Source: a virus (lineage: Duplodnaviria > Caudoviricetes). Taken from it: 55,546 nt of DNA. Below the pieces are notes generated by a model. That model saw only the letters and a program-made list of their open reading frames with translations. It searched no databases and was not told where the DNA came from. The stretch covers positions 1-55,546 of the IMG/VR virus record IMGVR_UViG_3300005662_000001; one strand, given 5' to 3'. Numbering within the stretch: the first letter of the stretch is position 1; each line of letters begins with the position of its first letter. Positions 2,783-50,615 of this stretch are shown here, one piece after another. The translations under genes were made by a program, and so were the position numbers.

Positions 2783-4642
2783 TCACTCTTCGGGCGGACG
2801 GTCTTTCAACAGACGTCTGCCCAATTCATATGTACCTAGACCAAGCCCGCCAAGCACGCCAGTGCCTCGCACCTTGGACATTGTTTTGCCCGCTGGGGGT
2901 AGCACAGCCGCCGCCGCCGCGCCAGCCTCCAGAGCCTTTAAAACGCCTTCGCTGGTATCGCCAGCTTTGAACCGCGCCAAGGCTTCTTGGTAACTCATCA
3001 CGCCAAGGTAACCAGCGCCAGCACCAACCCCAACCCGTGGCAACGCGCCCATCTTGGCGGAGCCTGCACCTACGTTTTGGAGAACGCGCCCTGCGGCGTT
3101 TGGTTGTTCTTGCGCACGCGCCAGTTTTCGACGAGCAACCTCTGCGTCTGTCTCAGCTTTGGTAAGCGCTTTTTGAAGGGGAGCCACCGCTTTAGTCTGC
3201 CCAGCAATAATGTTGTGTCGCTGACCAACTCGCGCACGCTCTTGACGCAAACGCTCCAACTCAGCCTCGTGAACCATTCGCTCAATCTCCAATCGACGGG
3301 CTTGCGTCTCTTGTTGAATGCGTTGCGATTCAGCTTGACGCTCTAACTCAGCTTGGCTTTCTTTCGTTTGACGGTCTATGTCAGCTTGACGCTCCGCTAC
3401 TGTAGTTGGGGGCAGTTGCAGTTGCACGCCACCCTCAGTGGTTACCAAGCCAAAGTCGCCAGCGCCAAGTTGTTTGATTTTTTCTAAGTTTGCAAGGTCT
3501 TGGTCAATCAAAGCCTTGCCACCTGTTGGGCTGTCTTTTGATTTTCCTGTGGCTACATCAAGAATGGCTTCAGGCAACTGATGCTGTTGACCAGCTTCTT
3601 GAATCATCCAATTTCTTGTGCCTGAGTCGCCTTCGATTTTTGGGCCACTTGCCCGACCCTCACGAGTCACTTGCGGAAAAGGCGACGATGGCGCAGGCGT
3701 CTCAACTACAGGTGCAGTTCTAGGCAATCCCCTCAACCGCTCTTGAGCCAGACGCTGTTCGTTTTTGAGACGCTCAAGTTCACTTTGACTTTGCCTAAAG
3801 GCATCCTCAAGGTTTTCCGTGCCTTGTGGAACGGCGCTCTCCAAATTAAGACGAGCCAACTCCAACTTATCTTGAGCGGTAAGGTTTGCCTCTTTTGCTT
3901 TTCCAGTGTCGACTTTTACCGCCATTTCTGGTTTAGTCATGGGCGGAAACAACAAATTGGTTATTGCTCCAGCACCAGCGCCAATGTCAGGGGCAGTGAG
4001 TCCACCTTGCTGGTCTTCTGGGTTTGCTTCTGGTTTTTTGTTTTTTGCCGCCTCTTCTTGCTCACGCTTGAACTTTGAAGACTCTGATTCGTAATTTGCA
4101 AAAGGGCTTTCGTCTTTTGAAGCCTCCTCCCCGCTGACTGGAATTAAGCCCGTCTCTTTGTCGTCATCAAGATTAAAATTCTTAGACACGCGCAAAGAAT
4201 AGTTGTGAGTCTCTTGAGGCAAAGACATGATAGCTTTGTCTGGGTCTGCCTCGTACGACTTCATAAAAGTTGCCACCGCTCTTGGGCTGGCGTTATACAG
4301 CGCTACCGCATTGCGTGGGCTTTTGTATGTGGTCAACAAGTCTTTGAGAATGGCAACGCCACCCTTGATGTTGCTATCCTCGTCATCAGGATTGATGTCA
4401 AGTTTGTATTTTTTGTTGTACAACTCTGCCGTGTTAGGCATGATTTGCATGACGCCCTTTGCTCCAGCAGGCGAGGTCAAAACGCCGTCCTTGCCATAGT
4501 GAGTAAACTTCCCACCAGTTTCAGCTTCTGCAATAGCAATCGCTAAAGCAGGGTTGACGCCTTGACGCTCCGCCTCCTTAGCAATCTTCTCCACCATGCT
4601 GAACTGGGCTGGAGACAACTTCATCAGTTTTGCGTCATCCAT
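2783..4642 (-). CDS. Internal virion/ejection protein with N-terminal lytic transglycosylase (SLT) domain
   Basis: AIAEAETGG, SPAGAKGVMQIMP, NIKGG, ALYNA SLT motifs, then coiled coil and a Gly/Ala hydrophobic C-terminus. Confidence 0.85.
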   Translation of the reverse strand: MDDAKLMKLSPAQFSMVEKIAKEAERQGVNPALAIAIAEAETGGKFTHYGKDGVLTSPAGAKGVMQIMPNTAELYNKKYKLDINPDDEDSNIKGGVAILKDLLTTYKSPRNAVALYNASPRAVATFMKSYEADPDKAIMSLPQETHNYSLRVSKNFNLDDDKETGLIPVSGEEASKDESPFANYESESSKFKREQEEAAKNKKPEANPEDQQGGLTAPDIGAGAGAITNLLFPPMTKPEMAVKVDTGKAKEANLTAQDKLELARLNLESAVPQGTENLEDAFRQSQSELERLKNEQRLAQERLRGLPRTAPVVETPAPSSPFPQVTREGRASGPKIEGDSGTRNWMIQEAGQQHQLPEAILDVATGKSKDSPTGGKALIDQDLANLEKIKQLGAGDFGLVTTEGGVQLQLPPTTVAERQADIDRQTKESQAELERQAESQRIQQETQARRLEIERMVHEAELERLRQERARVGQRHNIIAGQTKAVAPLQKALTKAETDAEVARRKLARAQEQPNAAGRVLQNVGAGSAKMGALPRVGVGAGAGYLGVMSYQEALARFKAGDTSEGVLKALEAGAAAAAVLPPAGKTMSKVRGTGVLGGLGLGTYELGRRLLKDRPPEE

Positions 4643-6494
4643 TTGTTTTTCCTTTTGCTTCACGTTCTTTTTTCAAACGCTCTAAGCGCTGAGAGTACGT
4701 TTCGTTCTTTGGAGGCTCTTCCGTAGGAATTGGAGTAGGCGTCACTGGCTTAGGTGGAGCGCTGGGAGCCGTTGCAGGCTTAGGTGGAGCCGAAGGAGCG
4801 GGAGGTGCGGAAGCCGCTGGTGTTTTCTCTTTTTTCTTTGGAGACAACAAGTCCAAGTTTTCTTCACGCACGCGGTCAAGCAACTTGCGGTAATCCGCTT
4901 TGATTGCTTTGTAGTCATCGTCAACAAGGAAGTCGTTATAGGTGTACCCAGACTGCTTGCTTTTTTGGTTCCACAGTTTGAAGCGTTCCTCGTCAAACAT
5001 ACCTTGCATCTTGAGGGCGTCAGACTTTAGAATGATGGCGCGTTGGCTGTCAGACGGCAACGCATAGATGCCACCCAACAGTTTGGTTTCGTAGTCAGAG
5101 GTGGAGCCTTCGCCCGGTGTCCTATTCAACTGACGACCACGCGATTGCAACTGTGCGCTCTTCTGCATGAACATCTGCAACGCAGTCAAGTCGTTGCCGC
5201 CAAGTTCGTACTGCTTGATAGTGCTGGCAGGAAGGTTGATGTTGAAGTTTCCAACATTCACGCCCTCTTGCACAGCGCGTGCAACAGCGTTAGCAAGACC
5301 GGGGCGGTTCATAATGTCAAACACCAACGGATTGTTCTTGGCATACCCAATCATGTCATTGGCAATGTTGCTGTTCTCAAACGCCGCCTCAGCTTGCAAG
5401 CCCAGACGTGAAGCCATTTTTTCAGCGGCTTCAGCGCGACCAGCCGCAGTCTTAGTTGCAGTTTCTTTTTCCGCTTCAATTTCAGTTTGAGATTTAGAGC
5501 GAGGAATTGGTTCTGACGTTTCCCCAGCTTTAGGAATTTTGCGACCACGCACTTGCTCAGGGTCAAGCCAACCTTTACTGTCGTAAAAAGAAAGTAGCTT
5601 TTGCTCGTCTCCATCAGAGAAGTATTGCTTGAGAGCCGCGTCGTACTCTTTTCGCTGTGCGTAGGTCATGTCTCGCTCAGTGCGAGTTCCGCGAGGGGTG
5701 ACTTTAGTTGTTGACTGTTGCAATTTCTCTTGTTCAATGCCCAACTTCTCGCGTTCAATGCGGTTCTTCTCTTCACCCTCTTGAGCCTTGCGAATTTCTG
5801 TCAAAGTTGGAAGCATTTTTGGCGCAACGCGACTTGCCAACAACAACACTTCATCAGTGATTGGAATGCGTCCCTGACGAGCGGCAATCAACACCTGCTC
5901 AGACTTTGGCGCGGTAGCAACGTCGACGGGCGAAGCAGTGCCGGGGACTCTCAGCCCCCCAGTTGGTGTAGCCACAGCACCACCAGCAGGTGCAGGTGCA
6001 GTGCTAGGCTGTGCGCCACCGAGCAATGTGCTGATTAACTGGTCGCCACCCAACTGTTGGCGAAACTCTTGCTCTTTTGTGGCAAGTTCCATCTCCAGCT
6101 TCTGATTCTCTCGCTGGTGAAGCAATTCGCGCTCTGCGGCTGAACCTGCGTTCTCTGCGGCATACCCCAAGGACTCGCCAAAAGAACCCGTCTTGGTGGG
6201 TTTTAAGAAGCCTGCGGCGGTCTGCATCAAGACAGGGTCAAACAACCTGCTCTTGCGTGCGTCCAAACCCTCTCGGAGTCGCTGAAGAGTTTCGTTCATC
6301 TTCTCGCGTTGCTCTCCAAGGTCGTCAACAATCGTTTCTTTTAACCCAGTCGGTTGCGACTTGGTTATTTCTTCGAGGTTTTCAGCTTGTACCGCGCCCG
6401 CGTCAAACTTACTCCCAGCCTGATTTGGTGCGGCGGGGGGTCTTGCTTGAGCGGCGGAGGCTTGACCCAAACCACCTTGTGTTGGAATTGCCAT
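4635..6494 (-). CDS. Internal virion/ejection protein
   Basis: 619 aa, helical, Q/E/A-rich with Pro-rich tail; position next to the SLT protein. Confidence 0.65.
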   Translation of the reverse strand: MAIPTQGGLGQASAAQARPPAAPNQAGSKFDAGAVQAENLEEITKSQPTGLKETIVDDLGEQREKMNETLQRLREGLDARKSRLFDPVLMQTAAGFLKPTKTGSFGESLGYAAENAGSAAERELLHQRENQKLEMELATKEQEFRQQLGGDQLISTLLGGAQPSTAPAPAGGAVATPTGGLRVPGTASPVDVATAPKSEQVLIAARQGRIPITDEVLLLASRVAPKMLPTLTEIRKAQEGEEKNRIEREKLGIEQEKLQQSTTKVTPRGTRTERDMTYAQRKEYDAALKQYFSDGDEQKLLSFYDSKGWLDPEQVRGRKIPKAGETSEPIPRSKSQTEIEAEKETATKTAAGRAEAAEKMASRLGLQAEAAFENSNIANDMIGYAKNNPLVFDIMNRPGLANAVARAVQEGVNVGNFNINLPASTIKQYELGGNDLTALQMFMQKSAQLQSRGRQLNRTPGEGSTSDYETKLLGGIYALPSDSQRAIILKSDALKMQGMFDEERFKLWNQKSKQSGYTYNDFLVDDDYKAIKADYRKLLDRVREENLDLLSPKKKEKTPAASAPPAPSAPPKPATAPSAPPKPVTPTPIPTEEPPKNETYSQRLERLKKEREAKGKTNG

Positions 6495-46653: not shown

Positions 46654-46717
46654 AGTATAACGCGAAATTAAACGAGTCAACAACTATTTTAAAAATATTT
46701 ATTAGTGGTTTCCCTAA
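46654..46717 (-). promoter_or_regulatory. Repeated early promoter cassette 2
   Basis: TAGGGAAACCACTAA, AAATATTTT, GTTGTTGACTCGTTTAATTT...TATACT. Confidence 0.7.
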
Positions 46718-47373
46718 CCCTCAATTACCCAGCCTGCAAACTCGCCCATACGGAAAAACAGCTTGGCATCCTCCCCCAAGATGGCTGGGTCGATTGGAAC
46801 CTGCACGCCAGCCAAACTCATCTCCTTGGTCAACACGTCTTCTGGCTTCGCGCCCTGCTGTAGCTTGAACTGCATCGTGAGACGCTTCAGGACGGTCGCA
46901 AAGTACCCTTGGTGGTCACAAACCTTGTCCACCACTACTATCACCCCACCCTGCTTGCAATTCGCCCTCACAGAGTCGATTAAGGCTCTTCGCTTGTCGA
47001 TTGGGATGAACATCATTGTCAAAAACAAAATGTGTACATTTGCTGGAGGCACTTCTGTTCTGGTGATGTCTGAGTTCTCAACAACAACACTATGACCTTT
47101 TTTGTTGTATCTCTTTTCTAAAATCTTACACATTGAAGCGCTTTTCTCAATTGCAACAATGTCTGCCATACGCTCATCTGCCAGTGGCAGAAGTTTGCCC
47201 ACCATATTCCCTGTAGAAGCGCCGATGTCCACCACCACGCCATACTCTGGCAAATAGTTGCGGGCGATGTATACCACCGCGTCGGTCACCATGTCGTACC
47301 ACGGCAACTGCTCACGGACATGAGCGTCAAATGTGTTGGCAATCTCTGGCGTGTCAAATGTCCAAGATTTCAT
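46714..47373 (-). CDS. CmoA-like carboxy-SAM synthase / class I SAM-binding protein
   Basis: WTFD, LPWY, DIGASTG, LTMMF, GG...DK, FK..QG motifs parallel E. coli CmoA; start ATG 47373 overlaps the MTase stop. Confidence 0.8.
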   Translation of the reverse strand: MKSWTFDTPEIANTFDAHVREQLPWYDMVTDAVVYIARNYLPEYGVVVDIGASTGNMVGKLLPLADERMADIVAIEKSASMCKILEKRYNKKGHSVVVENSDITRTEVPPANVHILFLTMMFIPIDKRRALIDSVRANCKQGGVIVVVDKVCDHQGYFATVLKRLTMQFKLQQGAKPEDVLTKEMSLAGVQVPIDPAILGEDAKLFFRMGEFAGWVIEG

Positions 47374-48395
47374 AATGGGAACCTCTTTGCAATTTCGTAG
47401 ATGACTGGGATGGTGACGGTGCGACCGCAACGCTCGTAACGCTCTGCATCACTGACCAGCGAACCGTCTTCATAAAATTTAGTGAAGTTGTCGGGCAATC
47501 CTTGCAGGCGCTCACACTCCAATGGCGTTAGGCGGCGCAGGCGCTCACCAACGATGACTCCATGTCTGTCTTGAGCAGTCAACGTGAACGCTGGCTCGTT
47601 GTGGTCTTTGACGCGACGCCCGTTCTGGCGCTTGCTATCGCGGTGAGGCGTCAACACTGGGCGAACCTGCATCACAGCGCCGCGCCCTTGATTGTTTTGA
47701 ATGCCCTTCCAGTAGTGACCGTCAAGCGTTGGAAAAACGTCCTTGAACTGCATCACTTTGCCTGTTACGAAAGGCATGAGAACAGGTCGTTCTGATTCGG
47801 GTTCCCCTCCTCGAATTTCTCCTTGCGTTCCTTTTTCTTTTTCGAGAACATCTTCTGAAACGCAGAGTCCGAGAGGAAATACTTGGGGTCTGGGTTGTCC
47901 TCTAAGATGTCCGACAATGAATACCCGTTCACGGTTTTGCGGGACTCCGAAATTTTGGCTGTTAACAACTTCCCATTGAACGTCGTACCCCAGTTCATCA
48001 AGACTTGAGATGATGACAGCAAAGGTTCTTCCCCCATCGTGGTTGAGGAGTCCCTTGACGTTTTCAAGGAAAATATAAGGTATTCGTTTGTCTCTGAGAA
48101 CGCGACAGATTTCAAAAAAGAGAGTACCGCGAGTATCTTCTGTCGAGAATCCAGAGCGCTTTCCAGCAACGCTGAAAGTCGCGCACGGGAATCCGCCACA
48201 TAGAAGTTCTGCGGCTGGGATGTCGTCGGGTCGAACAGTTCTAATGTCTCTTGGGTCTGGCTGATGTCCGAAGTTCCGCTCATAAATTCTCCTTGGCTTT
48301 TCTAATATTTCGTTTGCCCACACGCACTGGTGTCCCGCCTGCTCAAGCCCCAGACGGAACCCACCAATGCCTGCAAACAACTCAATGAATCTCAT
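47370..48395 (-). CDS. C5 DNA cytosine methyltransferase with variant cofactor pocket
   Basis: Motif I ELFAGIGG, IV GGFPC, VI ENVKG, VIII QNRER, IX RLTPLECERLQG, X CGRTV. Confidence 0.93.
   Translation of the reverse strand: MRFIELFAGIGGFRLGLEQAGHQCVWANEILEKPRRIYERNFGHQPDPRDIRTVRPDDIPAAELLCGGFPCATFSVAGKRSGFSTEDTRGTLFFEICRVLRDKRIPYIFLENVKGLLNHDGGRTFAVIISSLDELGYDVQWEVVNSQNFGVPQNRERVFIVGHLRGQPRPQVFPLGLCVSEDVLEKEKGTQGEIRGGEPESERPVLMPFVTGKVMQFKDVFPTLDGHYWKGIQNNQGRGAVMQVRPVLTPHRDSKRQNGRRVKDHNEPAFTLTAQDRHGVIVGERLRRLTPLECERLQGLPDNFTKFYEDGSLVSDAERYERCGRTVTIPVIYEIAKRFPL
47765..48283 (-). CDS. Nested alternative-frame gene inside the methyltransferase (beta-polypeptide-like)
   Basis: 172 aa, ATG preceded by AAGGAG at 5 nt; contains SLSDILEDNPDPKYFLS. 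Confidence 0.65.
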   Translation of the reverse strand: MSGTSDISQTQETLELFDPTTSQPQNFYVADSRARLSALLESALDSRQKILAVLSFLKSVAFSETNEYLIFSLKTSRDSSTTMGEEPLLSSSQVLMNWGTTFNGKLLTAKISESRKTVNGYSLSDILEDNPDPKYFLSDSAFQKMFSKKKKERKEKFEEGNPNQNDLFSCLS

Positions 48396-48706
48396 TGAGG
48401 CTTACCTTCCATCTTGAGGTGCGCCAGCAACTCAACCAATGCAAACCTGTCGTCTGGGTATTGCTTGATGTAATTCTCAATCTCATGGAGAACGTAGTCA
48501 AAGCCGCTGTTGAATCCCTTGATGTATTCGCTCATAACCGCCTCCGCTTGTGGTCGCTTGCAATCTTTGTGTTGGTCGATGAAATAATCCATTGCGTCAA
48601 TAATGACGTTGATAGGTGCAGGCATAAAAGGCGGAGCCTCTTCTGCGCCGCAGAACTCGCATTTGAACTTGCCGTTCAGGCTGTTAGTGATGACGTGGTC
48701 GCTCAT
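48392..48706 (-). CDS. Hypothetical protein with putative zinc site
   Basis: CEFC...H..C; ATGA overlaps at both ends. Confidence 0.7.
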   Translation of the reverse strand: MSDHVITNSLNGKFKCEFCGAEEAPPFMPAPINVIIDAMDYFIDQHKDCKRPQAEAVMSEYIKGFNSGFDYVLHEIENYIKQYPDDRFALVELLAHLKMEGKPQ

Positions 48707-49877: not shown

Positions 49878-50615
49878 CTATCCCGCAACAATGTCTTGTT
49901 CCGCCATTTGGCAGAAGATTGAGCATTCAATGTCAGGCTCCTGCGGATAGTTCCCGTCTGTAGGCTTGAGTTCATCAAGGTAGCGGTCTTTGAAAATGGT
50001 CTGCTTCTTGAACCGCTCCAGCTTTGCCATACGGTCAAACTGCTCAGGGAAGTCAACCCGAATCTTGTTCCAGTACCCCATCCCGCCCTTGACGCAACCA
50101 ATGCAGTTGTTGTTGAGGTAGCCCAGCTTGTACATCTGCGGCAACTCAATGCCCGCGTTCTGGAGCATCGCTAGGCAGTCAACCTTGTTCAGCCCCTTTT
50201 CAATCAATGGAACCCACACGTCGACCTCGTTGTTGGCATCAATAAATCGGTCATAACGCTGTTGCTCTTCAGCGGTGTAGCCAAACACTTGACGGTCGCC
50301 GACCTGCTCATAGCGCTCACGCACTTGCTTTTTCAGCACGCGAGTGCATGGAGCCGCGCCCCTGATGTTCATTGCGCTGGTCTTGAACGTCTCGTAAATG
50401 GAACGCTTGTAGTAGTCGTTTCCAAGAATGACAATGTCCTGCCCAAACCACTTCTCGCATTCCGCTAGGAATCGCTTGTTGTCTGAATGCTCCTCCATGA
50501 CTTCGGTGTAGGCAATCACCAATGGCAACTTGCCTGCGTTCTCCGCGATAGCCAGCTTGGTAGCCACGGCACTTGCCGCCCCGCAACTAAACCAGCAAAC
50601 AATTCGTTTTGTCAT
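49878..50615 (-). CDS. PP-loop (PAPS-reductase-like/adenine nucleotide alpha-hydrolase) protein
   Basis: WFSCGAAS PP-loop, APCTR.LK, NNNCIGCVKG, ECSIFC. Confidence 0.8.
   Translation of the reverse strand: MTKRIVCWFSCGAASAVATKLAIAENAGKLPLVIAYTEVMEEHSDNKRFLAECEKWFGQDIVILGNDYYKRSIYETFKTSAMNIRGAAPCTRVLKKQVRERYEQVGDRQVFGYTAEEQQRYDRFIDANNEVDVWVPLIEKGLNKVDCLAMLQNAGIELPQMYKLGYLNNNCIGCVKGGMGYWNKIRVDFPEQFDRMAKLERFKKQTIFKDRYLDELKPTDGNYPQEPDIECSIFCQMAEQDIVAG

What the first reader, a model, noticed from the sequence alone, without database searches (positions are those of the whole stretch)
46714..48395. CmoA-like cofactor synthase coupled to a cytosine MTase with a remodelled cofactor pocket: candidate DNA carboxymethylation system
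Seen: a C5-MTase overlaps (ATGA) a CmoA-like gene. The MTase reads PCA instead of PCQ in motif IV (48180-48188) and GRTV instead of GN(S/A)V in motif X (Arg codon 47421-47423). Established: CmoA makes carboxy-SAM from SAM and prephenate. Q82 and N304 of M.HhaI are residues mutated to admit bulky SAM analogues, and the Asn-to-Lys change in M.MpeI (N374K) yields a 5-carboxymethylcytosine-forming enzyme. Inference: this phage naturally has both changes and its own cofactor supply, so it may write 5-carboxymethyl-C or a related adduct for anti-restriction. Caveats: by my from-memory alignment the carboxylate-binding Arg199 of E. coli CmoA (QKRSML) aligns to Glu here (TKEMSL), so the product could be a different SAM derivative. 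Phage carboxymethylcytosine may already have been reported elsewhere.
Basis: partly seen in the sequence, partly recalled or inferred. Interest (0 to 1): 0.92.

Follow-up and report, generated by a model that had tools for sequence, protein, structure and literature searches.

The report
Phage DNA carboxymethylcytosine enzyme pair
This complete uncultured phage genome carries an enzyme pair that most likely makes carboxy-SAM and uses it to put carboxymethyl groups on the phage's DNA cytosines, a DNA camouflage first shown in another phage in December 2025, so it is a variant of a known system, not a new one.

Summary
Observation confirmed. A 341-aa C5-cytosine transferase (47370-48395, minus strand) reads PCA in motif IV and GR in motif X. 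It overlaps by ATGA a 219-aa CmoA-like gene (46714-47373).

Interpretation supported, but no longer new. Yang et al. (Nat Commun, Dec 2025, PMC12783734) showed that phage S-B43 CmoA makes carboxy-SAM. Its CmoX, with Arg in place of HhaI Asn304, writes 5-carboxymethylcytosine.

- Ala72 and Arg325 co-vary without exception among relatives.
- 46 of 48 related viral loci with room carry the CmoA-like gene directly downstream. Of the two without, the one inspected is a PCQ/GN enzyme.
- Six relatives insert a CmoY ligase homologue.

Differences: the transferase belongs to a GFPCA clade that fails the paper's SPPC filter. No ligase, ParB or chorismate mutase is present, so plain 5cxmC is the predicted product.

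In passing: a +1-frame ORF nested in the transferase gene (47765-48283) is under purifying selection. It resembles the M.EcoHK31I beta arrangement, is predicted to dock on the transferase, and ends in a clamp-binding-like motif.

This scan has already met the system in at least 122 genomes. No biochemistry was possible.

The parts
47370..48395 (-). CmoX-like DNA cytosine C5-transferase, 341 aa. It belongs to the GGFPCATFS / RYERCGR clade and is the predicted carboxymethyltransferase.
   Evidence: PF00145 E 1.5e-79. Residues 1-162 align with M.HhaI at domain E 1.5e-47, and with 8yf3 (SpCmoX) at E 1e-16. Clade conservation is shown.
48180..48188 (-). Motif IV Pro-Cys-Ala. It holds the catalytic Cys71 and has Ala72 where HhaI has Gln82 and SpCmoX has Ser.
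   Evidence: PCA in 119 of the 120 closest proteins.
47421..47423 (-). Arg325 codon (CGC) in motif X, at the position of HhaI Asn304 and SpCmoX Arg350.
   Evidence: In PMC12783734 this Arg contacts the carboxymethyl group of Cx-SAM in structure 8YF3.
46714..47373 (-). CmoA-like protein, 219 aa, the predicted carboxy-SAM synthase. Glu184 (46822-46824) sits at the place of E. coli Arg199.
   Evidence: TIGR00740 is the best NCBIfam family, 63.7 bits, under the cut-off of 193.3. 4gek E 2.3e-9. AlphaFold model pLDDT 89.5; best PDB folds are 4gek, 4iwn and 1im8 at TM 0.85-0.87. Residue table.
47370..47373 (-). ATGA overlap of the transferase stop and the CmoA-like start (translational coupling).
   Evidence: The same end-to-start junction appears in most related loci.
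47765..48283 (-). ORF of 172 codons nested in the +1 frame of the transferase gene. AAGGAG lies at 48294-48289, five bases before its ATG at 48283-48281. It is a probable M.EcoHK31I-beta-like partner protein.
   Evidence: The frame is open for 174-251 codons in 41 of 41 different related genes. Synonymous diversity of the transferase frame is depressed over the overlap. The +1 motif is conserved. The complex model scores 0.81 against a best control of 0.00.

Best explanation
The two translationally coupled genes form a phage DNA cytosine carboxymethylation module of the CmoA-CmoX kind.

Proposed mechanism:
1. The CmoA-like enzyme converts host SAM and host prephenate into carboxy-SAM (inferred).
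2. The C5-transferase flips out a target cytosine and attacks C6 with Cys71 of the PC motif.
3. It transfers the carboxymethyl group of Cx-SAM to C5, giving 5-carboxymethylcytosine. Arg325 of motif X holds the carboxylate, and the small Ala72 in place of Gln makes room for it (inferred from the S-B43 structure and from engineered enzymes).

The complete 55.5-kb genome has no CmoY-type ligase, so the carboxymethyl group is probably the final mark and not a handle for an amide. The likely use is protection of phage DNA against host restriction. The target sequence is not known.
For: Shown by sequence:
- ATGA coupling of the two genes.
- An intact C5-MTase core: PC, ENV and QxRxR are invariant with SpCmoX, and PF00145 scores E 1.5e-79.
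- Arg325 aligns with HhaI Asn304 and with SpCmoX Arg350.

Shown by comparison:
- Ala72 and Arg325 co-vary without exception in 150 representatives and in the 120 nearest proteins.
- In 55 related viral loci, 48 have at least 700 bp after the transferase. 46 of those 48 carry a CmoA-like gene directly downstream.
- The two loci without it are L056 and L057. L056 reads PCQ and GN. L057 gave the same tblastn pattern but was not read separately.
- Of 80 loci from cellular genomes, 76 are PCQ and none has a CmoA-like gene in the locus. Both PCA loci with room have one.
- The best transferase in 50,697 deposited phage records is 47% identical (Enterococcus phage EC99P2). It is PCQ/GN, with a 159-codon annotated hypothetical gene downstream that I did not compare with CmoA. 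No Enterococcus record is named among the CmoA-like hits; one organism name is hidden in that summary.
- Six relatives (L026, L027, L032, L035, L036, L038) place a homologue of the validated glycine ligase SpCmoY between the transferase and a CmoA-like gene. The ligase homologue is 36-37% identical to SpCmoY, and the CmoA-like gene is 64-78% identical to the one here. A ligase needs a carboxylate, so this argues that this CmoA type supplies a carboxyl-bearing donor.

CmoA-like protein:
- CmoA is its best family and its best fold, TM 0.87 to 4gek.
- Tyr39, Gly64, Ser66, Phe137, Lys165, Lys185 and Lys198 of E. coli CmoA are kept in all 41 phage homologues compared. Asp62 is Asp or Glu in all 41. 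Thr134 is kept in 39 and Arg143 in 38.

Precedent: PMC12783734 (abstract, Results and Discussion read).
Against: - No activity data exist for this clade.
- The CmoA-like protein scores far under the curated TIGR00740 cut-off (63.7 against 193.3 bits). The validated SpCmoA is also under it, at 115.6 bits.
- The protein lacks Arg199, the residue that salt-bridges the carboxylate in E. coli CmoA (PMC3663124, passages read).
- Unlike SpCmoA, it also has Leu at the place of E. coli Arg186.
- The transferase fails the SPPC criterion that the paper used to define CmoX candidates.
- Its variable region, residues 178-286, is modelled with pLDDT near 30.
- The genome carries no prephenate supply, so the host must provide it.
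- The genome also shows extreme avoidance of many restriction sites: GATC 0 observed against 147 expected, and CCWGG and GCWGC both 0. The modification is therefore at most one of several protections.
Confidence: 0.78

Rival explanations
1. The CmoA-like enzyme makes a SAM derivative other than carboxy-SAM, and the transferase puts that other group on cytosine C5.
For: - Glu184 replaces the carboxylate-binding Arg199 and Leu replaces Arg186 of E. coli CmoA.
- TIGR00740 scores only 63.7 bits.
- The next best folds after CmoA are ordinary small-molecule methyltransferases (CysG, BelI) at TM 0.79-0.80.
Against: - The validated Cx-SAM synthase of S-B43 also has Glu at the Arg199 position.
- The partner transferase keeps the Arg that binds a carboxylate.
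- Relatives with this CmoA type carry a homologue of an ATP-dependent ligase that acts on a carboxyl group.
Confidence: 0.08
2. The transferase is still an ordinary SAM-dependent 5-methylcytosine methylase, and the neighbouring CmoA-like gene serves another purpose.
For: - The N-terminal half is very close to ordinary methylases: E 1.5e-47 to M.HhaI, and 53-63% overall identity to the nearest PCQ/GN representatives.
- All catalytic motifs are intact.
Against: - A/R co-varies perfectly with the CmoA neighbour.
- In S-B43 the wild-type Arg enzyme accepted only Cx-SAM (PMC12783734).
Confidence: 0.07
3. The main role of the CmoA-like enzyme is to drain host SAM and so disarm SAM-dependent defences. 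DNA modification is secondary.
For: The Discussion of PMC12783734 raises this only as a possibility. Nothing in the sequence speaks for it.
Against: The tight coupling to a transferase with a carboxylate-binding Arg in 46 of 48 loci is what a donor-acceptor pair would show. This rival does not exclude the main reading.
Confidence: 0.04

Closest known systems
CmoA-CmoX-CmoY system of Synechococcus phage S-B43 (Yang et al., Nat Commun 2025, PMC12783734; CmoX structure 8YF3)
   Same: - A CmoA homologue sits next to a C5-MTase homologue.
- Arg stands at the HhaI Asn304 position.
- A small residue follows the catalytic Cys.
- Both share an E-R-x-G-R string in motif X.
- Both are in phages.
   Different: - Motif IV is GFPCA, not SPPCS.
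- Identity to SpCmoX is only 32% in alignment A1, with phmmer E 1e-16 against 5e-52 for HhaI.
- Gene order is transferase then CmoA, joined by an ATGA overlap.
- There is no CmoY ligase.
- The CmoA is 23-24% identical to SpCmoA and has Leu at the E. coli Arg186 position.
- The target site is unknown (S-B43: GC).
Moraxella phage Mcat8 genes AKI27362/AKI27361 (KR093632.1; both annotated as hypothetical)
   Same: It holds the closest CmoA-like protein in deposited phages: 42% by tblastn and 44% in alignment A2. That gene lies directly after, and overlaps, a C5-transferase with Arg in motif X.
   Different: Its transferase is of the SPPC type, like SpCmoX. The same CmoA type is therefore paired with both transferase types.
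Engineered enzymes: M.MpeI N374K (uses Cx-SAM) and M.HhaI Q82A/N304A (accepts bulky SAM analogues)
   Same: They change the same two pocket positions as here. M.MpeI N374K is described in PMC12783734. For HhaI Q82A/N304A I saw only the search listing of PMC3526304.
   Different: Those are laboratory mutants. Here both changes are natural, fixed in a large clade, and coupled to a cofactor gene.
E. coli CmoA/CmoB tRNA cmo5U pathway
   Same: The synthase has the same fold and family.
   Different: No CmoB is present and the acceptor is DNA. Arg199 is replaced by Glu. Identity to E. coli CmoA is 21%.
M.EcoHK31I alpha/beta C5-methyltransferase (as described in PMC2836561, passages read)
   Same: A second protein is encoded in another reading frame inside the transferase gene, and it associates with the large chain.
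   Different: In M.EcoHK31I the beta chain supplies motif IX. Here motifs IX and X lie in the main frame. The nested protein has no Pfam match and ends in a Q-x-x-L-F motif.

Membership tests
CmoX (phage DNA cytosine C5-carboxymethyltransferase, as defined in PMC12783734) | C5-MTase fold with the catalytic PC Cys and the active-site Glu (ENV) and Arg (QxRxR) | tested here: met
   PF00145 E 1.5e-79. C71, E111, R155 and R157 are invariant with SpCmoX.
CmoX (phage DNA cytosine C5-carboxymethyltransferase, as defined in PMC12783734) | Arg at the position of SpCmoX Arg350 / HhaI Asn304 | tested here: met
   Arg325.
CmoX (phage DNA cytosine C5-carboxymethyltransferase, as defined in PMC12783734) | SPPC motif, used with R350 as the paper's filter for its 5,615 candidates | tested here: not met
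   Motif IV is GGFPCATFS here and in 119 of the 120 nearest proteins; the remaining one reads GGFPCGTFS.
CmoX (phage DNA cytosine C5-carboxymethyltransferase, as defined in PMC12783734) | A CmoA gene in the neighbourhood | tested here: met
   ATGA overlap here. 46 of 48 related loci with room have it.
CmoX (phage DNA cytosine C5-carboxymethyltransferase, as defined in PMC12783734) | Transfers carboxymethyl from Cx-SAM to cytosine C5 and does not use SAM | not testable with these tools
   Needs expression and LC-MS.
CmoA (carboxy-SAM synthase, TIGR00740) | Score over the curated family cut-off | tested here: not met
   63.7 bits against 193.3. The validated SpCmoA also fails, at 115.6 bits.
CmoA (carboxy-SAM synthase, TIGR00740) | CmoA fold | tested here: met
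   Model pLDDT 89.5. The best PDB matches are 4gek, 4iwn and 1im8 at TM 0.85-0.87. The next group, at 0.79-0.80, is not CmoA.
CmoA (carboxy-SAM synthase, TIGR00740) | Arg199 salt bridge to the carboxylate (PMC3663124) | tested here: not met
   Glu184 here. The position is Glu in 37, Asp in 3 and Arg in 1 of 41 phage homologues, and the validated SpCmoA has Glu.
CmoA (carboxy-SAM synthase, TIGR00740) | SAM-contact residues Tyr39, Asp62, Gly64, Ser66, Asp89, Asp117 | tested here: met
   Here they are Tyr, Asp, Gly, Ser, Glu and Asp.
CmoA (carboxy-SAM synthase, TIGR00740) | Makes Cx-SAM from SAM and prephenate | not testable with these tools
   Needs an enzyme assay.
CmoY (ATP-dependent 5cxmC amide ligase) | An asparagine-synthetase-like ligase gene in the genome | tested here: not met
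   PF00733 finds nothing at E up to 1 in the complete genome. tblastn with SpCmoY and five homologues gives nothing real. The PP-loop gene at 49878-50615 is unrelated to SpCmoY and absent from all 55 related loci.
M.EcoHK31I-type nested beta chain | A second ORF in another frame inside the transferase gene, kept by selection | tested here: met
M.EcoHK31I-type nested beta chain | The beta chain supplies motif IX | tested here: not met
   Motif IX (the LTPLECERLQG stretch) and motif X lie in the main frame. The nested protein has no PF00145 match.

The most novel reading that the evidence does not exclude
The carboxymethyltransferase gene codes for two proteins. On this reading, the conserved +1-frame protein of 172 aa is a beta-like subunit that docks on the catalytic domain of the transferase. 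Its C-terminal Q-x-x-L-F motif binds the host sliding clamp. DNA carboxymethylation would then be tethered to the replication fork, much as PCNA binding tethers eukaryotic DNMT1.
Probability: 0.2. Interest if true: 0.7.

Novelty: new variant of a known kind. Interest (0 to 1): 0.4.

Why it matters
The published census of natural DNA carboxymethyltransferases required an SPPC motif. This locus belongs to a large, almost purely viral clade with GFPCA that shows the same Arg and the same CmoA (and sometimes CmoY) partners. The system is therefore wider than the census says.

The clade's catalytic half is very close to M.HhaI, the best understood C5-methyltransferase. That makes it an easy starting point for mechanism work, and possibly for carboxymethyl-based DNA labelling tools.

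A ligase-less member would carry plain 5cxmC in virion DNA. The S-B43 study did not detect plain 5cxmdC in S-B43 virion DNA.

Tried and rejected
- It belongs to the PAPS-reductase-like family phrog_424.
- It shows no similarity to SpCmoY.
- No homologue lies within the flanks of any of the 55 related loci.
- I rejected it as part of the module.

2. Independent origin of the Arg in the GFPCA and SPPC clades.
- A tree of N- plus C-terminal cores puts all Arg-type enzymes on one side (SH-aLRT 100).
- A tree of the N-terminal core with the trait residues masked gives the GFPCA clade 97 support among PCQ/GN enzymes, with SPPC on a long branch elsewhere.
- The AU test does not reject one clade (p 0.63; the constrained tree is 4.55 log-likelihood units better).
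- I make no claim of convergence.
- Rows used: 72 of the 73 rows assembled. The 48 PCQ/GN rows were the first 48 of 101 representatives of 300-470 aa. One row (P0136) was dropped for a short C-terminal match.

3. Target site from site avoidance.
- GCGC is not avoided here (390 observed against 442 expected). The same holds in 10 of 10 relatives with the same variable region.
- GGCC, CCGG and AGCT are avoided.
- But GCGCGC (0 against 18) and GGCGCC (1 against 32) are avoided.
- Some relatives with other variable regions also keep GCGC.
- The result is suggestive at most, and I do not claim it.

4. The idea that the Gln-Ala to Ala-Thr change in motif IV was chosen because it is silent in the +1 frame. 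It holds for the window and L043 but not for L020, L051 or L144. Dropped.

5. The Protein Atlas gave no usable hit for the nested protein. Pfam gave none either.

6. Literature.
- The original Nature paper on Cx-SAM was not held. I took the Arg199 statement from PMC3663124 instead.
- For the nested ORF I made one search on phage MM1 (nothing useful) and read passages of PMC2836561.
- Supplementary tables of PMC12783734 (sequence comparisons, the candidate list) were closed. Whether any GFPCA enzyme is in them I cannot say.
- I did not check the motif states of deposited phage transferases other than EC99P2, MM1, Mcat8, S-B43 and the Staphylococcus SPbeta-like phage.
Full report
WHAT IS THERE

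The window is a complete virus record of 55,546 bp with direct terminal repeats. Almost all genes lie on the minus strand. The order is:
- a replication block: primosomal protein, primase, DnaB-like helicase and RusA;
- a PAPS-reductase-like PP-loop gene and a RecA-dependent nuclease;
- the two genes of the finding;
- a DUF6011 protein, terminase and virion genes.

By terminase, the nearest cultured relatives are Caulobacter phages at 41%. The host is not known.

The transferase ORF (47370..48395, 341 aa) and the CmoA-like ORF (46714..47373, 219 aa) overlap by ATGA.

THE TRANSFERASE

It is a full C5-cytosine methyltransferase homologue (PF00145 E 1.5e-79). Residues 1-162 align with M.HhaI at E 1.5e-47. 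On the printed alignment Ala72 falls on HhaI Gln82 and Arg325 on Asn304.

In a three-way alignment, Arg325 is invariant with Arg350 of S-B43 CmoX and with the Arg of the Moraxella phage Mcat8 enzyme. Cys71, Glu111, Arg155 and Arg157 are invariant as well.

The two odd residues are not private to this phage:
- All 120 of the closest 120 proteins (52-95% identical) show G-R in motif X. 119 read PCA and 1 reads PCG.
- Among 150 representatives of clusters at 50% identity, the states are (A,R) 8, (Q,N) 126 and (Q,unaligned) 10, with a few singletons. There is no (A,N) and no (Q,R). One of the eight (A,R) rows is a fragment with an unreliable motif X alignment.
- The Arg-type enzymes of both kinds share an E-R-x-G-R string, where ordinary enzymes read K-x-x-G-N.

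THE LINK TO CmoA

Viral contigs:
- A scan gave 55 loci with a relative of the transferase. 48 of them have at least 700 bp after the gene.
- 46 of those 48 carry a CmoA-like gene directly downstream, mostly with the same end-to-start junction.
- The two that do not are L056 and L057. L056 reads PCQ and GN and is split over two frames. L057 gave the same tblastn pattern but I did not read it separately.

Cellular genomes:
- A scan of one genome for each of 185,579 species kept 80 loci.
- 76 are PCQ, and none of these has a CmoA-like gene in the locus.
- Three are PCA. One has Arg plus a CmoA-like gene downstream. One has Met at the Arg position plus a CmoA-like gene. One is cut off. One further locus could not be parsed.

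Deposited phages: the best transferase among 50,697 records is 47% identical (Enterococcus phage EC99P2). It is PCQ/GN. A 159-codon annotated hypothetical gene follows it; I did not compare that gene with CmoA.

Ligase in relatives: in L026, L027, L032, L035, L036 and L038 a homologue of the S-B43 glycine ligase CmoY sits between the transferase and a CmoA-like gene. It is 36-37% identical to CmoY and has a PP-loop. The CmoA-like gene there is 64-78% identical to the one here. L051 has a weaker homologue (24%) upstream.

THE CmoA-LIKE PROTEIN

Pfam sees only generic methyltransferase domains. NCBIfam ranks CmoA first at 63.7 bits, under the cut-off of 193.3. The validated S-B43 CmoA is also under it at 115.6 bits.

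The AlphaFold model is confident (pLDDT 89.5). Its best PDB matches are the three CmoA structures (TM 0.85-0.87). CysG and BelI methyltransferases follow at 0.79-0.80.

E. coli Arg199 salt-bridges the carboxylate of the bound cofactor (PMC3663124, passages read). It is also Glu in S-B43 CmoA, which makes Cx-SAM faster than the E. coli enzyme (PMC12783734).

Among 41 phage CmoA-like proteins:
- the Arg199 position is Glu in 37, Asp in 3 and Arg in 1;
- the E. coli Arg186 position is Arg in 7 (S-B43 among them), Lys in 1, and Leu, Ile or Met in 33, including this one. This difference remains unexplained.

My inference, not tested: loss of the salt bridge may speed product release in enzymes that must feed genome-wide modification.

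WHAT IS ABSENT

The complete genome has:
- no asparagine-synthetase-like ligase;
- no chorismate mutase above noise (best 9.2 bits);
- no ParB-N domain.

The PP-loop gene 1.5 kb upstream is not a CmoY relative and is not conserved with the module. The predicted end product is therefore plain 5cxmC, made with host prephenate.

RELATION TO THE PUBLISHED FAMILY

The paper selected 5,615 CmoX candidates by SPPC plus Arg350. This clade reads GFPC and would not pass that filter.

Whether the two Arg-type clades share one origin is open. The answer depends on which part of the protein is used, and an AU test does not reject a single clade.

The closest CmoA-like protein in a deposited phage (Mcat8, 42-44%) is paired with an SPPC-type transferase. 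The same synthase type therefore serves both transferase types.

THE NESTED ORF

Another first-reader note (e1-6328828) pointed to an ORF in the +1 frame of the transferase gene (47765..48283).

Evidence that it is kept by selection:
- The frame is open for 174-251 codons in 41 of 41 different related genes. Synonymous-codon shuffles give mean longest runs of 63-119, and 0 to 4% of shuffles reach the observed length.
- The Tyr38 codon is TAT in 41 of 41 genes, and this yields an ATG in the +1 frame in 39 of 41.
- Pairwise dS of the main frame is 0.08-0.55 over codons 38-209. Over codons 210-341 it is 0.35-2.2, or saturated. dN is not lower over the overlap.
- In a sliding window the trough runs from about codon 70 to 200. 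In a second group, whose +1 frame ends at codon 248, it runs to about codon 260.
- Over codons 158-197 the +1 frame has pN/pS of 0.2-0.3, while the main frame has pN at or above pS.

Features of the +1 protein:
- It carries an invariant core, S-L-S-D-I-L-E ... D-P-K-Y-F-L-S.
- A Q-x-x-[LMF]-F motif lies within the last 22 residues in 29 of 41 genes. 0.44 genes would be expected after shuffling. 34 of the tails are distinct.
- That this motif resembles the bacterial sliding-clamp-binding consensus is my recollection, not a tool result.

Relatives of the arrangement:
- Some more distant PCQ genes share the long +1 frame: 7 of 73 have no +1 stop in codons 31-200.
- Streptococcus phage MM1 annotates the same nested ORF as a beta subunit.
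- Earlier reports of this scan led me to M.EcoHK31I. There a beta chain, encoded in another frame inside the alpha gene, is required for activity and supplies motif IX (PMC2836561, passages read).
- Here motifs IX and X are in the main frame, so the nested protein cannot play quite that part.

Complex model:
- The model supports binding of the nested protein to the transferase; it does not show it.
- The score is 0.81 (runs 0.79, 0.84, 0.81), and the best of 3 controls is 0.00.
- That mark was reached by 58 of 80 solved complexes and by 2 of 110 mismatched pairs.
- The runs agree in at least 45% of contacts, and the partner's pLDDT is at least 60 (61-62).
- My own alignments were used, so these counts hold only roughly.
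- The docking stretch (nested residues 89-145) looks like the hinge segment that ordinary single-chain C5-methyltransferases carry in frame. That is my inference. If so, the pass may partly reflect likeness to solved single-chain structures.

VERDICT

The kind of system has been known since December 2025, and this scan has noted it in at least 122 genomes, including close relatives of this very enzyme.

What is particular here:
- a transferase clade outside the published sequence definition;
- the absence of a ligase;
- a synthase that lacks two basic residues of the E. coli enzyme;
- a selected nested gene inside the transferase gene.

Noticed in passing
window 47765-48283 (-): An ORF in the +1 frame nested in the transferase gene is under purifying selection, has a conserved start, and ends in a Q-x-x-L-F motif. 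A complex model docks it on the transferase (score 0.81, best control 0.00). Streptococcus phage MM1 annotates the same ORF as a methyltransferase beta subunit, and M.EcoHK31I is the experimental precedent for this layout.
   Followed up: partly
whole window: Extreme avoidance of restriction-type sites.
- GATC: 0 observed against 147 expected.
- CCWGG: 0 against about 68 for each of the two words.
- GCWGC: 0 against about 72 for each word.
- GGCC: 37 against 224.
- CCGG: 31 against 128.
- 13 six-base palindromes with a Markov expectation of 6 or more are absent.
- GCGC is not avoided (390 against 442).

   Followed up: partly
window 47898-48076 versus Streptococcus phages MM1, IPP64, Javan83 and Javan78: About 180 bases of the transferase gene (motifs VI-VIII, inside the two-frame region) are 84% identical at the DNA level to Streptococcus phage methylase genes. 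Nothing else in 3.5 kb matches any deposited phage. This fits the double coding constraint.
   Followed up: partly
window 48392-48706 (-): A 104-aa ORF with a Cys-x-x-Cys pair ends in an ATGA overlap with the transferase start. Homologues lie directly upstream of the transferase in 15 of the 55 related loci; a sixteenth locus (L036) has a match elsewhere. It has no Pfam or PHROG match. Function unknown.
   Followed up: partly
L061 (Staphylococcus phage SPbeta-like, KT429160.1) 3980-5679: An annotated cmoA gene sits next to a C5-methyltransferase that reads PCQ in motif IV and, by my reading of the translation, G-G where motif X has G-N or G-R. This is a CmoA partner without the Arg.
   Followed up: no
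L148 (Clostridia MAG contig) and L144 (contig binned as Nanoarchaeota): L148 has a PCA transferase with Met at the Arg position, followed by a CmoA-like gene. L144 has a full A/R transferase plus a CmoA-like gene on a contig binned as an archaeon, which is probably a phage contig.
   Followed up: no
L056 4959-6072: The nearest PCQ/GN relative is split. Motifs I-VIII end at a stop. The variable region with motifs IX and X continues in the +1 frame, which opens about 400 bases upstream. This is a two-chain form of the same gene family.
   Followed up: partly
L062 (Erwinia phage vB_EamM_Y3) 3965-6556: An annotated carboxy-SAM synthase and an asparagine synthase lie side by side, followed by an oxygenase. 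No cytosine methyltransferase lies within 4 kb. The acceptor enzyme must be elsewhere or of another kind.
   Followed up: no
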